Positions 2 to 4,961 of a stretch of DNA of 7,298 bases are shown here, one piece after another. The notes below the pieces were generated by a model. That model worked only from the letters and a program-made list of their open reading frames with translations, made no database searches and had not been told where the DNA came from. Position 1 is the stretch's first letter; each line of letters begins with the position of its first letter. The DNA is taken from IMG/VR virus record IMGVR_UViG_2582580984_000004; one strand, given 5' to 3'. Source of the DNA: a virus. Its lineage: Duplodnaviria; Heunggongvirae; Uroviricota; Caudoviricetes. A program made the position numbers and the translations under genes.

Positions 2-340
2 GCGTCTCCAGTAGAGTGGCTGACGGATAATGGTTCATGCTACCGGGCTAATGAAACACGGCAGTTTGCCCGGATGTTGGGGCTTGAACCGAAGAACACG
101 GCGGTGCGGAGTCCGGAGAGTAACGGCATAGCAGAGAGCTTCGTGAAAACGATAAAGCGTGACTACATCAGTATCATGCCTAAACCAGACGGGTTAACGG
201 CAGCAAAGAACCTTGCAGAGGCGTTCGAGCATTATAACGAATGGCATCCGCATAGTGCACTGGGTTATCGCTCGCCACGGGAATATCTGCGGCAGCAGGC
301 CAGTAATGGGTTAAGTGATAACAGGTGTCTGGAAATATAG
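2..340 (+). CDS. insD: IS2 transposase OrfB (InsD), C-terminal part; 5' end lies outside the window
   Basis: The frame is open from position 2 ([35 protein letters not shown]...) with no stop until TAG at 338-340. The ORF track shows only 74-340 because it starts at the first Met. The DDE-integrase C-terminal signature HPHSALGY is present. Confidence 0.9.
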
Positions 341-1215: not shown

Positions 1216-2181
1216 TTATCCTCTGAAACCAGGCGGAATTTCTGTATCCGGTTCAGAAATATGATTCATACAACGCTGTACAGGTGAACGTCCCAGGCGG
1301 ATGACCAGTTCGTCCCATTTTTCGCGGAGTTTTGACGGGCTCATGATGTTTTTTACCCAGAATTGATCTCGCTGTACCCGACCAAACATTTCGCAAATTT
1401 GTCTGTGGCTTCTGCCATCCAGCATCCGCATTGTGCGCACGTCATTGGCCCAGGCTGTCCAGTTAGGCTCTTTTGGTCGCATGATCTCTCCATCGTCGCT
1501 GGCAGCCTGTTCGTAAAGGTTCACGATCCGCCCCCAAATCCACTGCGCACACGCCAAATCCTCCCTGCTACCCCACTGGCGTTTTTTCGCACTAAACACA
1601 ACCGCGTCGGGGTTCCGGGTTAAAAAATCCTGTTCAGCGGTCTGCGGGTCCGGTTGCGAAGCTTCCGGACGAAAAGTGTTTTTATTCTCTGTAGTAATCT
1701 CTGTTGTATTCTCTGTAAGATCATCAGGCCATTTTGACCCGATGACATTGGGTCGTTTTGAACCAATGGAGCGTTTCATTTTGACCTCTTCCATCGTGTC
1801 ATTTTGACCTGATGGAGCGGCGCATTTTAAACCGATGGATTCGCTCAATTTGCCACCATCTAAAAGCTCGCTCCCGTAGTTGATCGTGTAGAAATTGGTC
1901 ATATCGCGCTTTGATTTATTGAGCTTTTCACAACGCAAAAGCCCCAGCGTTTTCAGACTTGCAAACGCGCGCTTTAACGTTGACTCTGACCAGAATGGGA
2001 ACTGTTCCAGCCATTGTTCCGTTGTGTTGTAAATCCAGCGAACACCATCACATTCCATGCCGGAATTGGTATCTCTCAACCAGTAATGCAACTGCTGCAA
2101 CACAATGGCTTCATTTAAGCCAATCTTCATCGCAAGCTGTGTGTTTATAACCAGTGGGCGTTCAGCAAAAAGAAGGCTCAT
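1216..2181 (-). CDS. phage replication initiator (lambda O-like replisome organizer), 321 aa from ATG at 2181
   Basis: N-terminal winged-helix-like region (LNEAIVLQQLHYWL...IYNTTEQWLEQFPFWSESTLKRAFASLKTLGLL) typical of phage replisome organizers. The middle of the gene carries tandem iterons, as the lambda O gene carries ori-lambda. The ORF track starts at a TTG at 2235; the ATG at 2181 with a GGATGGAA upstream is the more plausible start. Confidence 0.7.
   Translation of the reverse strand: MSLLFAERPLVINTQLAMKIGLNEAIVLQQLHYWLRDTNSGMECDGVRWIYNTTEQWLEQFPFWSESTLKRAFASLKTLGLLRCEKLNKSKRDMTNFYTINYGSELLDGGKLSESIGLKCAAPSGQNDTMEEVKMKRSIGSKRPNVIGSKWPDDLTENTTEITTENKNTFRPEASQPDPQTAEQDFLTRNPDAVVFSAKKRQWGSREDLACAQWIWGRIVNLYEQAASDDGEIMRPKEPNWTAWANDVRTMRMLDGRSHRQICEMFGRVQRDQFWVKNIMSPSKLREKWDELVIRLGRSPVQRCMNHISEPDTEIPPGFRG
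1729..1842. repeat. five tandem ~22-bp iterons (consensus tcATTTTGACCnGATGGagcg) inside the initiator gene; putative prophage ori
   Basis: Repeat copies begin near 1729, 1754, 1776, 1799 and 1821; the third copy carries CCATC in place of GATGG. Adjacent at 1686-1721 are three 12-bp repeats (TCTCTGT-nnnnn) in an AT-richer stretch. Confidence 0.65.
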
Positions 2182-2683
2182 AATTCCATCCAGCTTTTTG
2201 TTGGTATTGCTGTCGATACGCAAGTTTGAAAGCAATTGCTTTTTCTATAAGTTCGTCAGTTTCACGATCCACTACGGCAGGATCAGCAAAAAGCAGTCCG
2301 GACTCCACCACATCGCCATATTCTTTGTTTAACCCGGCGATCATGTACGTGATGCTTTTTCCGTCACTAATTTCACGATACAACCTGAAATCATTAATCC
2401 GGATAGCCTCCATAATTGCAGGCACTAGCGCCGTGAACTTTTCACGCTTATCCCTAGTGTCGATAGCCTTCCAGCGTTCGAATATCTTCACTCGATTAAC
2501 GCCAAGCGCTCGCTGATCAACCGCGCCACCTTCATCTGTGACACGCTGAACATCGATGTTCGGGCGCTCTTTCAAAGCCCAGAATGCTTCAGTGATTAAT
2601 ATCGTCGCCTGCTCCTGTGTCATTCCTGGTCGACATATCCAGGCATCCAGAGCCTCACGAGCCTGTTCAGGAGTGATTTTCAT
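2162..2683 (-). CDS. hypothetical protein, 173 aa, between the Cro-like gene and the replication initiator (the position occupied by YdaT/CII-type genes in related prophages)
   Basis: ORF-track entry with ATG at 2683-2681; overlaps the end of the upstream gene by 17 nt and the start of the initiator by 20 nt, a compact operon layout; no family recognised from sequence. Confidence 0.55.
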   Translation of the reverse strand: MKITPEQAREALDAWICRPGMTQEQATILITEAFWALKERPNIDVQRVTDEGGAVDQRALGVNRVKIFERWKAIDTRDKREKFTALVPAIMEAIRINDFRLYREISDGKSITYMIAGLNKEYGDVVESGLLFADPAVVDRETDELIEKAIAFKLAYRQQYQQKAGWNYEPSFC

Positions 2684-2894
2684 TGTTCAACCGCCCCGCC
2701 CGCTTCGTCTTACGATATTCGTCATAAACCTTGGGATCATACAGAAGCTCGCCGCCAGATGCCTCCTGTAGACGCATCGCGCGACCTTCAGGAACCAGCT
2801 CTTGCCATTGAGAAACAGCAGATGGGTCAACGCCAGCAGCTTTCGCTACTTTGGCTTTCGTACCGTAAAAATTAATTACGTCTGATTTAAACAT
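2667..2894 (-). CDS. dicC: Cro-type small DNA-binding regulator (DicC/YdaS-like), 75 aa
   Basis: ATG at 2894-2892 preceded by a strong SD (GGAGGT, ~4 nt spacing). Divergent from the DicA-like repressor across a ~77-bp operator region. The ORF-track start at 2921 is a TTG extension and lacks an SD. The symbol is assigned from position and size, not from a confirmed sequence match. Confidence 0.7.
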   Translation of the reverse strand: MFKSDVINFYGTKAKVAKAAGVDPSAVSQWQELVPEGRAMRLQEASGGELLYDPKVYDEYRKTKRAGRLNNENHS

Positions 2895-2971
2895 CGCACC
2901 TCCAATATTGAGTTTTCTCAATGCTAATCACTCAAGGAATCTCAAGTCAAGGGTTATTAAGATATCTAAAT
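2895..2971. promoter_or_regulatory. divergent control region between the dicC-like and dicA-like genes, with operator-like repeats
   Basis: Inverted-repeat operator ATTGAG-tttt-CTCAAT at 2907-2922; CTCAAG direct repeats at 2931-2936 and 2941-2946, plus TCAAGG at 2947-2952; candidate -35 TTGACT (minus strand, 2950-2945) for the leftward promoter. Confidence 0.55.
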
Positions 2972-3379
2972 ATGAACGAGAAAACTTTAGGTCAACGCAT
3001 TAGAGAAAGACGTAAGCAGGTAGGCTTAAGTCAAAACGGTTTAAGCAAAGCTGCTGGCGTATCTGGCTCATCAATTTCATTATGGGAAAGTGACCATACA
3101 GCCCCGCGCGGGCAAAATTTGCATCGCCTCGCCGAGGTATTGCAATGTTCACCAACCTGGATACTGTTTGGCGACGAGGACAAAACACCAGCTCCCCCTG
3201 TTTCACTCGATAGTGCCTTAGACTTATCGGAAGATGAGTTAGAGATGCTGCGTTTGTATCGCGCACTTCCTAAATCAGAGCAACAAGCACAACTCAGCGA
3301 ACTCCGCGCCCGCGTTGAGAATTTTAATCGCCTGTTCACCGAGCTATTAGAGGCTCGCAAACGCAACAAGCATCAATAA
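2972..3379 (+). CDS. dicA: DicA-like HTH (XRE-family) prophage repressor, 135 aa
   Basis: Translation MNEKTLGQRIRERRKQVGLSQNGLSKAAGVSGSSISLWESD... has a classical XRE helix-turn-helix. It sits immediately upstream of a ydfA-dicF-dicB-ydfD array and divergent from a Cro-like gene. The ORF-track start at 2921 would leave no intergenic space, so the ATG at 2972 is preferred; no obvious SD precedes it. Confidence 0.8.
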   Translation: MNEKTLGQRIRERRKQVGLSQNGLSKAAGVSGSSISLWESDHTAPRGQNLHRLAEVLQCSPTWILFGDEDKTPAPPVSLDSALDLSEDELEMLRLYRALPKSEQQAQLSELRARVENFNRLFTELLEARKRNKHQ

Positions 3380-4270: not shown

Positions 4271-4545
4271 ATAGATTTCCTTCTTGGTTATTCGGGATAA
4301 GAAGGATACCACCTCGCCTGACGTGGTTAAAAGCAGGCATACAACACGAAAGCGCACGGCGAAGTTCGTCTCACTGTACGGTGTCGTTAAATTTAATTCG
4401 ACCGTGCGCTTCCGGTTGTGGCAACCCGCGAAATGGCGCGGCGGTAAGTATGGCGGGGTTATTCCTTCCCCGTTGAGGACACCGAGTTGTCAGGTTGACC
4501 ATACGCTTAAGTGACAACCCCGCTGCAACGCCCTCTGTTATCAAT

Positions 4546-4603
4546 TTTCTGGTGACGTTTGGCGGTATCAGTTTTACTCCGTGACTGCTCTGCCGCCCTT
4601 TTT
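4546..4603 (+). ncRNA. dicF: DicF small regulatory RNA (antisense regulator of ftsZ), about 53 nt plus U-tail
   Basis: Sequence tttctggtgacgtttggcggtatcagttttactccgtgactgctctgccgccc-ttttt matches DicF as I recall it; it lies just upstream of dicB as in Qin and ends in a GC-stem plus U-run terminator. Ends are approximate. Confidence 0.75.
4561..4603 (+). terminator. DicF 3' intrinsic terminator
   Basis: GGCGG (4561-4565) pairs with CCGCC (4593-4597), with an inner CAGT/ACTG pairing, followed by cTTTTT (4598-4603). Confidence 0.65.
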
Positions 4604-4772
4604 AAAGTGAATTTTGTGATGCGGTGAATGCGGCTGAGCGCACGCGGAACAGTTAAAACCAAAAACAGTGTTATGGGTGGATTCTCTGTATCCGGCGTTA
4701 ATTGTTAACTGGTTAACGTCACCTGGAGGCACCAGGCACCGCATCACAAAATTCATTGTTGAGGACGCGATA

Positions 4773-4961
4773 ATGGAAACGTTATTACCAAACGTTAATA
4801 CGTCTGAAGGTTGTTTTGAAATTGGTGTCACTATCAGTAACCCTGTATTTACTGAAGATGCCATTAACAAGAGAAAACACGAACGGAAGCTATTAAATAA
4901 AATATGCATTCTTTCAATGTTGGCCCGTTTACGTCCGATACAAAAAGGATGCTGGCAATGA
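4773..4961 (+). CDS. dicB: DicB cell-division inhibitor (MinC-dependent), 62 aa
   Basis: ATG at 4773 preceded by GAGGA (4761-4765, 7 nt spacing). Translation METLLPNVNTSEGCFEIGVTISNPVFTEDAINKRKHERKLLNKICILSMLARLRPIQKGCWQ matches DicB in length and, as far as I recall, in sequence. The ORF-track start at 4668 is an upstream extension. Confidence 0.8.
   Translation: METLLPNVNTSEGCFEIGVTISNPVFTEDAINKRKHERKLLNKICILSMLARLRPIQKGCWQ

What the first reader, a model, noticed from the sequence alone, without database searches (positions are those of the whole stretch)
4608..4755. Perfect 19-bp long-range inverted repeat encloses the ~110-nt spacer between the DicF terminator and the dicB ribosome-binding site
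tgaattttgtgatgcggtg (4608-4626) is the exact reverse complement of caccgcatcacaaaattca (4737-4755). In the operon transcript this would form a ~19-21 bp duplex beginning a few nt after the DicF U-tail and ending ~6 nt before the dicB SD (GAGGA 4761-4765). A duplex this long is an RNase III-type substrate and could couple DicF 3'-end maturation to dicB expression. The enclosed loop contains two GTTAAC palindromes (4703-4718).
Basis: seen in the sequence. Interest (0 to 1): 0.55.

Follow-up and report, generated by a model that had tools for sequence, protein, structure and literature searches.

The report
RNase III stem between dicF and dicB
The 19-base inverted repeat is real and forms a long RNA stem that RNase III was already reported to cut in the E. 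coli dicF-dicB prophage operon; the new point is that the stem closes a conserved folded phage RNA, not a plain spacer.

Summary
Arms 4608-4626 and 4737-4755 are perfectly complementary, and the RNA helix extends to 21 bp (4606-4626 with 4737-4757).

In 40 related prophage and phage loci the helix is 98% paired. Twelve of its 21 pairs show compensatory changes. G-U outnumbers A-C by 66 to 6, so the constraint acts on the + strand RNA and not on DNA.

The RNase III reading matches published K-12 work. RNase III processing of read-through dicBF RNA gives a 72-nt DicF, whose 3' end maps to about 4617-4622, inside the left arm. An rnc-mutant RNA-seq study lists a dicF-dicB site marked as known. 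The core of the finding is therefore already known.

What I add:
- The enclosed 110 nt is a pseudoknotted domain related to the prophage sRNA family STnc100/PasD (Rfam RF02076: 40.1 bits, below the 47-bit cutoff, E 2.9e-7; detection is reciprocal).
- Stand-alone family members close with only 5-9 bp.
- Copies placed just upstream of dicB, kilR and other small early-operon genes have a closing stem of about 21 bp, roughly two helical turns.
- The two GTTAAC motifs are one strand of a stem and one strand of the pseudoknot.

Any effect on dicB expression remains untested.

The parts
4347..4414 (+). Upstream hairpin (arms 4347-4359 and 4402-4414). It probably carries the other RNase III site, the one that creates the 5' end of the 190-nt DicF precursor.
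   Evidence: Inverted repeat I3. Ragunathan 2023 shows that RNase III makes the 5' end of the 190-nt DicF; 190 nt back from the terminator is about 4410-4414. The mapping is my inference.
4546..4603 (+). DicF sRNA with its intrinsic terminator hairpin and U-tail (4599-4603).
   Evidence: Rfam RF00039 at 4547-4598, 76.7 bits. The K-12 dicF annotation 1649382-1649434 aligns to 4546-4598.
4599..4605 (+). 5' strand of the weak outer extension: the U-tail plus AA, pairing with 4759-4765.
   Evidence: 83.5% of cells paired in 40 homologues, 5 of 7 pairs with changes on both sides. Weak and not universal.
4606..4626 (+). 5' strand of closing helix P1. The reported RNase III 3' end of the 72-nt DicF falls here, at about 4617-4622.
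   Evidence: Literature. Coordinate mapping.
4630..4645 (+). P2 hairpin (GCGGC...GC.CGC), following the conserved AAU junction at 4627-4629.
   Evidence: 99% paired in A2. 100% paired with 3 of 5 compensatory pairs in the family-wide alignment A4.
4650..4656 (+). 5' strand of the pseudoknot (CAGUUAA), pairing with 4705-4711.
   Evidence: 98.9% paired in A2. Other family members carry different complementary pairs at the same place, e.g. ATCAGCG/TGCTGGT, CTGGTGT/ACACCGG, AATGAC/GTCATT.
4657..4693 (+). Variable insert of the domain. Its length differs between homologues by amounts that are not multiples of three.
   Evidence: The distance between arms is 101, 110, 111, 115, 116, 118, 119, 123 or 124 nt in different loci.
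4694..4720 (+). P4 hairpin: 8-bp stem 4694-4701 with 4713-4720, and loop 4702-4712, which contains the pseudoknot 3' strand UUAACUG (4705-4711). The two GTTAAC motifs lie here.
   Evidence: 93.8% paired with 5 of 8 compensatory pairs in A2; 7 of 8 compensatory in A4.
4722..4736 (+). P5 hairpin CCUGG-AGGCA-CCAGG, the most conserved motif of the family.
   Evidence: 100% paired in A2 and A4. It served as the search pattern for the family.
4737..4757 (+). 3' strand of closing helix P1.
4759..4765 (+). 3' strand of the outer extension, including the dicB Shine-Dalgarno GAGGA (4761-4765).
4773..4961 (+). dicB (62 aa), the first gene downstream of the element.
   Evidence: ORF list. RefSeq annotation of the 100%-identical hit as 'cell division inhibition protein DicB'.

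Best explanation
The two arms are the 5' and 3' strands of helix P1. P1 closes a 110-nt pseudoknotted RNA domain lying in the dicBF operon transcript between the DicF terminator and the dicB ribosome-binding site. The domain is a diverged relative of the prophage sRNA family STnc100/PasD.

Free-standing family members have a P1 of only 5-9 bp. In this subtype, placed directly upstream of small early-left-operon genes (dicB, kilR and others), P1 is lengthened to about 21 bp, roughly two turns of A-form helix, the size I recall RNase III needing.

In transcripts that read through the DicF terminator, the helix forms and RNase III cuts within it. The cut produces the 72-nt form of DicF and separates the dicB-ydfD mRNA, and presumably the enclosed domain, from the upstream RNA.

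Shown here: the helix, its covariation, its strand specificity and the family relationship. Taken from the literature on K-12: the RNase III dependence and the 72-nt product. Inferred: the exact cut positions in this window and every consequence for dicB.
For: - The helix is present in the MFE and centroid folds, z = -5.3.
- In 40 homologues P1 is 98.0% paired. Twelve of 21 pairs change on both sides, there are 20 distinct arm pairs, slid controls give 35-42% pairing and 0 of 500 shuffles reach the observed values.
- P1 cells are WC 756, G-U 66, A-C 6, which means an RNA constraint on the + strand. The CM scores 191.5 bits on + against 40 bits on -.
- P1 length is bimodal. About 77 unique family members have 5-9 bp, and 57 of those have a terminator within 110 nt. 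Forty members of this subtype have about 20-22 bp, none has a downstream terminator, and all are followed by an ORF that starts 30-70 nt after the right arm begins.
- Family link: Rfam STnc100 scores 40.1 bits, E 2.9e-7, and its consensus outer helix coincides with the arms. A CM built only from dicB-type copies finds Rfam-certified STnc100 copies at 46-59 bits. The family-wide alignment supports P1, P2, P4 and P5, and the pseudoknot covaries.
- RNase III evidence: the 72-nt DicF, mapped through; the rnc-dependent site in dicF-dicB flagged as known; and a review listing the dicA-dicF-dicB intergenic regions as RNase III substrates.
Against: - I could not read Faubladier et al. 1990. The cut position rests on the figure '72 nt' quoted by later papers and on the annotated DicF 5' end, giving about +/-5 nt of uncertainty.
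- The Gordon 2017 coordinate (window 4634) is a coverage-ratio peak, not a mapped end, and it lies just inside the enclosed domain rather than in the arm.
- Embedded copies with a short or irregular P1 exist: P7/D6 upstream of tciA (8 bp) and the Arsenophonus copies (9-10 bp). A long stem is therefore not obligatory for embedded copies.
- One homologue (L030) has an A-C mismatch in the helix.
- Nothing here or in the literature I could read shows any effect on DicB synthesis.
Confidence: 0.8

Rival explanations
1. P1 is simply the closing stem needed to fold the STnc100-like domain, and the domain's own, still unknown, activity is the point. RNase III cleavage would then be an incidental consequence of stem length with no selected role.
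For: The same fold exists with a short P1 in many stand-alone copies. All inner helices and the pseudoknot are conserved. Embedded copies with a short P1 also exist.
Against: Five to nine base pairs suffice to close the fold in 77 unique members. Several independent sequence versions of this subtype nevertheless keep about 20-22 bp through compensatory changes, which argues that length itself is selected.
Confidence: 0.12
2. The helix plus its U-tail:SD extension acts as a translational operator. It masks the dicB ribosome-binding site in read-through RNA until cleavage or unfolding.
For: The MFE structure pairs CUUU (4598-4601) with GAGG of the SD. The outer extension is 83.5% paired across homologues.
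Against: The modelled unpaired probability of the SD is 0.13-0.21 both before and after the modelled cut, so no switch is predicted. In kilR-type loci the U-tail pairs with an A-run upstream of the SD, and other subtypes have no U-tail at all. The pairs are mostly U-G or U-A and weak.
Confidence: 0.06
3. The repeat is a DNA-level feature: terminal inverted repeats of a small mobile element, a recombination or protein-binding palindrome, or cruciform DNA. On this view the GTTAAC sites are DNA palindromes.
For: The repeat is perfect, lies in a prophage, and is AT-rich at its outer ends. The element occurs in several prophage contexts.
Against: Substitutions are strand-asymmetric, G-U 66 against A-C 6. 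No direct repeats flank the arms. Copies lie at homologous positions upstream of genes, not dispersed. The interior is a covarying RNA fold. The GTTAAC motifs are explained by P4 and the pseudoknot, and they vary in homologues while pairing is kept.
Confidence: 0.02

Closest known systems
RNase III processing site downstream of DicF in the E. coli K-12 Qin dicBF operon (Faubladier, Cam & Bouche 1990, as cited in PMC5069750, PMC9438474, PMC2777011 and PMC5371410)
   Same: It is the same locus in another strain. The K-12 sequence aligns base for base (96% mean column identity across the 474-column alignment). RNase III-dependent processing of read-through RNA gives a 72-nt DicF whose end maps into the left arm.
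   Different: K-12 has two adjacent G-U pairs (GAUGUGGUG with CACUGCAUC) where this window is perfectly Watson-Crick. I could not check whether the 1990 paper drew this long-range helix.
Rfam RF02076 STnc100 and the related PasD prophage sRNAs (Hfq-associated; found in the late regions of lambdoid and Stx prophages)
   Same: Same architecture: closing helix, AAU junction, P2, a pseudoknot between the segment after P2 and the P4 loop, the P5 motif CCNGG-AGGCA-CCNGG, and then the 3' strand of P1. Detection by covariance models is reciprocal.
   Different: The Rfam score of 40.1 bits is below the 47-bit cutoff. P1 is 21 bp rather than 5-9 bp. The copy has no promoter or terminator of its own and sits inside an early-left operon immediately upstream of a start codon. 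P2 has a different sequence.
RNase III stems that bracket structured RNAs or separate cistrons: the rRNA precursor stems around 16S and 23S, the phage T7 early-mRNA R sites, the lambda N-leader site, and metY-nusA
   Same: A helix of about two turns in a polycistronic transcript is cut to release or separate functional RNAs. As with the rRNA stems, the two strands lie far apart and enclose a folded RNA. This comparison rests on general knowledge, and for the list of substrates.
   Different: The T7, lambda N and metY sites are local hairpins. Here the enclosed RNA is only 110 nt, and its fate after cleavage is unknown.
KilS-kilR leader of the Rac prophage (K-12 b4833; Bar et al. 2021, PMC8175672)
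   Same: The module order is the same: upstream hairpin, an sRNA ending at a terminator (KilS in place of DicF), the same STnc100-like element (160.7 bits with my CM), and then a small FtsZ-inhibitor gene.
   Different: P1 carries a one-base bulge after the inner 9 bp. The sRNA seed differs. The only rnc-dependent signal listed for Rac (1418510) maps to the upstream hairpin, not to P1.

Membership tests
RNase III processing site | A largely uninterrupted dsRNA helix of about two helical turns (about 20-22 bp) | tested here: met
   A 21-bp helix, 4606-4626 with 4737-4757, of which 19 are Watson-Crick in a row. The length of about 20-22 bp is kept in several sequence versions.
RNase III processing site | rnc-dependent RNA ends that map inside the helix in vivo or in vitro | not testable with these tools
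   Literature on the K-12 orthologue only: the 72-nt DicF produced by RNase III, mapped to about 4617-4622, and the coverage-ratio peak at window 4634 in the rnc mutant.
RNase III processing site | Staggered cuts on both strands leaving 2-nt 3' overhangs | not tested
   No data are available for the 3' strand. I only modelled a dicB mRNA 5' end at about 4745-4749.
Rfam RF02076 STnc100 | Covariance-model score at or above the curated gathering score (47 bits) | tested here: not met
   40.1 bits, E 2.9e-7, over model positions 1-206. There was no hit at the gathering threshold.
Rfam RF02076 STnc100 | The family's consensus secondary structure is present and maintained by covariation | tested here: met
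   The Rfam consensus outer helix aligns to the two arms. P1, P2, P4 and P5 are 93-100% paired with many compensatory changes. The pseudoknot covaries.
Rfam RF02076 STnc100 | Reciprocal detection: a model built from this subtype finds certified family members | tested here: met
   Model R1 hits copies that Rfam calls STnc100 at 69-147 bits. The R1 scores are L013 59 bits, L014 58, L008 54 and L005 46.
Rfam RF02076 STnc100 | Expressed as a discrete, Hfq-associated small RNA | not testable with these tools
   No expression data for the enclosed domain were accessible. Per-base coverage at window 4634 is 0 in wild type and 26 in the rnc mutant, from libraries whose retention of small RNAs I did not check.
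DicF (Rfam RF00039), as context | Score above the gathering threshold immediately upstream of the helix | tested here: met
   76.7 bits against a 48-bit cutoff at 4547-4598.
MITE or IS terminal inverted repeats | Flanking target-site duplication, dispersed copies, and symmetric (DNA-level) conservation of the two arms | tested here: not met
   No direct repeat flanks the arms. Copies lie at homologous gene-proximal positions. G-U outnumbers A-C 66 to 6.
Intrinsic terminator or attenuator | A GC-rich stem followed directly by a U-run | tested here: not met
   The helix is followed by UUGUUGAGGA. The terminator scan found nothing there, and 0 of 40 copies of this subtype have a terminator within 110 nt downstream.
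HK022 put-type antiterminator RNA | About 70 nt forming two adjacent stem-loops with no closing helix, located just downstream of an early promoter | tested here: not met
   The architecture here is a closed multi-helix junction with a pseudoknot, located after a terminator deep inside the operon. The put description comes from PMC9378689. No put model exists in Rfam for a sequence test.

The most novel reading that the evidence does not exclude
The dicF-dicB 'spacer', and its twin between kilS and kilR in Rac, would be an operon-embedded gene for an STnc100/PasD-type RNA. The 12 or so extra base pairs added to P1 would act as an excision adaptor that replaces the promoter and terminator of the stand-alone copies.

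One RNase III cut at the reported position would then give three products:
- the 72-nt DicF;
- a pseudoknotted RNA of about 128 nt (about 4619-4746) left with a P1 of roughly 5-9 bp, the canonical length for the family;
- a dicB mRNA with a leader of about 26 nt.

The released RNA might act in trans. One weak lead is that 4715-4723 is perfectly complementary to the DicF seed GGUGACGUU.
Probability: 0.3. Interest if true: 0.6.

Novelty: already known. Interest (0 to 1): 0.3.

Why it matters
DicF and DicB are toxic cell-division inhibitors made from a single prophage transcript, so how that transcript is cut decides how much of each is produced. RNase III was already known to cut just downstream of DicF.

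This analysis supplies the structure behind that cut. It is a covarying helix of about 21 bp, and it closes a conserved pseudoknotted RNA related to the prophage sRNAs STnc100 and PasD. The same module precedes kilR and other small early-operon genes in several enterobacterial genera.

This turns an old observation into specific experiments: does RNase III release a third functional RNA from the dicBF and Rac kil operons, and does the stem set the level of DicB or KilR? If the answer to both is no, the feature is an ordinary and already catalogued processing site.

Tried and rejected
- **Primary papers not held.** Faubladier 1990, Faubladier & Bouche 1994, Cam 1988 and Murashko 2017 were unavailable. 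The supplements of Altuvia 2018 and Melamed 2016 are also not held. The cut position is therefore second-hand.
- **Over-degenerate genome scan.** The genome-contig scan with AATGCGGCTNNGCGCNCGNGG was too degenerate for 596 Gb. Most of the 120 loci were chance hits in GC-rich genomes, and only 15 were real.
- **Rfam at gathering threshold.** It finds nothing in the spacer. Only the E-value mode shows STnc100.
- **DicF seed with dicB codons 2-5.** This pairing appears in the MFE fold but is not significant: 110 of 500 shuffles do as well.
- **An SD accessibility switch on cleavage.** The partition-function model does not support it.
- **HK022 put-like antiterminator.** Rejected on architecture and position.
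- **A coding reading.** The 97-aa ORF from GTG 4668, in frame with dicB, is rejected because homologues differ in this region by indels that are not multiples of three.
- **The rnc-dependent 'kilR-sieB' site in Rac.** It looked like support for P1 cleavage there, but it maps to the upstream hairpin near the KilS 5' end.
- **My terminator regex.** It missed the interrupted DicF terminator upstream of the element, so I relied on Rfam and direct reading instead.

Full report
**1. The observation**

The window carries the Qin-type dicBF region of an E. coli prophage. Window 4400-4960 is 100% identical to strain FDAARGOS_497, and window 4599-4773 is 100% identical to phage mEp460_ev081. Rfam places DicF at 4547-4598 (76.7 bits). 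dicB runs from 4773 to 4961, with its GAGGA Shine-Dalgarno at 4761-4765.

The repeat finder reports arms 4608-4626 and 4737-4755: 19 nt, 100% complementary, 110 nt apart. This is the longest perfect inverted repeat within 400 nt in the window. By arithmetic, only about 1e-5 such repeats are expected by chance.

Read as RNA, the helix gains G4607-U4756 and A4606-U4757, giving 21 bp. After a bulged G4758, seven weak pairs can form between the DicF U-tail (4599-4605) and 4759-4765. RNAfold of 4540-4790 forms the helix in both the MFE and the centroid structure (z = -5.3).

**2. Is the helix real in evolution?**

I collected relatives without conditioning on the arms. One scan of viral contigs used the inner hairpin motif. 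One scan of genome contigs used the P2 motif, and most of its hits were chance matches.

Forty distinct copies of this subtype were aligned (A2). On the structure I specified, P1 is 98.0% paired, and 12 of its 21 pairs change on both sides. Sliding the 3' partner gives 35-42% pairing, and no shuffle reaches the observed values.

There are 20 distinct arm pairs. Several have entirely different outer sequences:
- CAGACCTTGCAATGCAGTG with CACTGCATTGCAAGGTCTG
- GCAGGTTTTAAGGTGTGGTG with CACCACACCTTAAAGCCTGC
- GCGAATTTTGTGGTGTGGTG with CACCGCACCAACAAAATTCGC

Mismatch types are strongly asymmetric, with G-U 66 against A-C 6. The covariance model scores 191.5 bits on the + strand and 40 bits on the - strand. 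The constraint is therefore on the + strand RNA, not on the DNA.

**3. What the arms enclose**

The 110 nt between the arms are not a spacer. A permissive Rfam scan matches RF02076 STnc100 over 4596-4805 at 40.1 bits. That is below the 47-bit cutoff but has E = 2.9e-7, and the family's outer helix falls on the two arms.

A model built only from dicB-type copies (R1) finds copies that Rfam itself certifies as STnc100 at 69-147 bits. The shared architecture, in order, is:
- P1;
- an AAU junction;
- hairpin P2 (4630-4645);
- a pseudoknot strand (4650-4656);
- a variable insert;
- hairpin P4 (4694-4720), whose loop carries the other pseudoknot strand (4705-4711);
- hairpin P5, CCUGG-AGGCA-CCAGG (4722-4736);
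- the 3' strand of P1.

All of these helices are supported by compensatory changes within the subtype and across the family (that alignment is model-fitted, so it leans towards the structure). The pseudoknot uses at least a dozen different complementary sequence pairs.

STnc100 and its relative PasD are described as Hfq-associated prophage sRNAs.

**4. Why the stem is long here**

Closing-helix length is bimodal. About 77 unique family members close with 5-9 bp, and 57 of them have an intrinsic terminator within 110 nt. Thirteen have a promoter-like site just upstream. Several lie next to phage tRNA genes or occur in tandem arrays.

The 40 members of this subtype have about 20-22 bp, sometimes with one bulge after the inner 9 bp, and no downstream terminator. 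Each is followed by an ORF that starts 30-70 nt after the right arm begins. The ORFs include DicB, KilR, small Cys-rich proteins and small membrane peptides. Many copies are preceded by DicF or a DicF-like sRNA terminator.

Keeping about two helical turns through compensatory change, when 5-9 bp are enough to close the fold, points to selection on length. From general knowledge, about two helical turns is the substrate size RNase III needs.

There are exceptions. The P7/D6 copy upstream of tciA has an 8-bp P1, and the Arsenophonus copies have 9-10 bp.

**5. RNase III**

Two papers citing Faubladier et al. [quoted passage not shown] A review lists the dicA-dicF-dicB intergenic regions among RNase III substrates.

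The K-12 annotation (dicF 1649382-1649434) aligns to window 4546-4598. A 72-nt species therefore ends at about 4617-4618, or as far as 4622 if the 53-nt form includes the U-tail. Every one of these positions lies in the left arm.

Gordon et al. 2017, Table S1, lists a site 'dicF-dicB' at 1649470 (window 4634). Per-base coverage there is 0 in both wild-type replicates and 26 in the rnc mutant, and the site is flagged as known. Ragunathan et al. 2023 confirm the other RNase III site, the one that makes the 5' end of the 190-nt DicF. I place that site in the hairpin 4347-4414.

I could not read the 1990 paper, so the exact nucleotide is second-hand, and I do not know whether the helix was drawn there.

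**6. Consequences (inference)**

With a cut after about 4617/4618 and a 2-nt 3' overhang, the dicB mRNA would start near 4747, giving a 26-nt leader. The excised RNA (about 4619-4746, 128 nt) would keep an 8-9-bp P1 (fewer, down to about 5, if the cut lies nearer 4622), the length seen in stand-alone family members. Its predicted fold retains P2, P4 and P5.

The remaining lower duplex is weak (-12 kcal/mol). The modelled SD accessibility is 0.13-0.21 both before and after the cut, so I see no computed basis for a translational switch. Whether DicB output changes is open.

**7. Verdict**

The additions are:
- formal covariation support for the helix;
- its identity as the extended closing stem of an STnc100/PasD-like pseudoknotted domain;
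- the recurrence of the same module upstream of kilR (after the sRNA KilS) and upstream of other small genes in Citrobacter, Lelliottia, E. albertii, Shigella and others.

The most novel reading still open is that RNase III releases the domain as a third functional RNA.

Noticed in passing
window 4347-4414: Hairpin upstream of DicF (arms 4347-4359 and 4402-4414). Counting 190 nt back from the DicF terminator lands in its 3' arm, so it is probably the RNase III site that makes the 190-nt DicF precursor. DicF would then be flanked by two RNase III-type helices.
   Followed up: partly
L246 (K-12 NC_000913.3 1417700-1419500), minus strand 539-803: In the Rac prophage the annotated sRNA KilS (b4833) occupies the position DicF has in Qin. 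It is followed by the same STnc100-like element (160.7 bits) and then by kilR. The KilS 5' end lies in the 3' arm of a hairpin homologous to window 4347-4414, next to the rnc-dependent site 1418510 of Gordon 2017.
   Followed up: partly
window 4551-4559 versus 4715-4723: The DicF seed GGUGACGUU is perfectly complementary to AACGUCACC at the P4/P5 boundary of the downstream element. The duplex is -16.9 kcal/mol, the best on the + strand of the window, and 18 of 1000 shuffles do as well. There is no co-variation in loci whose upstream sRNA has a different seed. It could be seed masking, a sponge, or chance.
   Followed up: partly
L026 457-980; L046 1810-2333; L013 2265-3380: STnc100-type elements occur as tandem arrays, three copies at a 253-nt period in L026 and L046 and five Rfam-called copies in L013, next to phage tRNA genes. 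This suggests repeated duplication of the RNA gene.
   Followed up: no
L003 (phage P7) 2490-2631; L004 (phage D6) 2490-2636: P1-like plasmid prophages carry a copy of this subtype's core with only an 8-bp closing stem. It sits just upstream of terB/tciA in the ban operon, downstream of tRNA genes.
   Followed up: partly
window 74-340: An 88-aa ORF matching only the C-terminal integrase-core domain (rve_3). It is a truncated transposase fragment at the left edge of the prophage segment.
   Followed up: no
window 2162-3379: The immunity region differs from K-12 Qin. It has a 152-aa HTH_3 repressor (2921-3379) that, from memory of the K-12 protein, looks clearly diverged from DicA. Divergently transcribed from it are a P22_Cro/YdaS-like gene (2667-2921) and a YdaT-like gene (2162-2683), which by my reading resembles the Rac arrangement. 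The prophage therefore looks mosaic.
   Followed up: no
window 4668-4961: A 97-aa ORF from GTG 4668 runs in frame into dicB across P4, P5 and the right arm. Homologues differ here by indels that are not multiples of three, so the extension is not coding.
   Followed up: yes
hit H54, Aeromonas phage AP1 MT713136 249969-250143: A 254-kb Aeromonas phage record carries a 98.9% identical copy of the E. coli dicB leader close to its end. An Actinobacillus phage record has an 87% copy. The Aeromonas case looks like assembly contamination.
   Followed up: no
one search hit list (phages mEp460_ev081, Tritos, HannyBb, vB_EcoS-689R5 and others): Sequenced Escherichia phage records carry the element, and many of them annotate a dicB-type cell division inhibition gene under the match. 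This contrasts with the 2016 statement that phage databases lacked DicB and DicF homologues.
   Followed up: no
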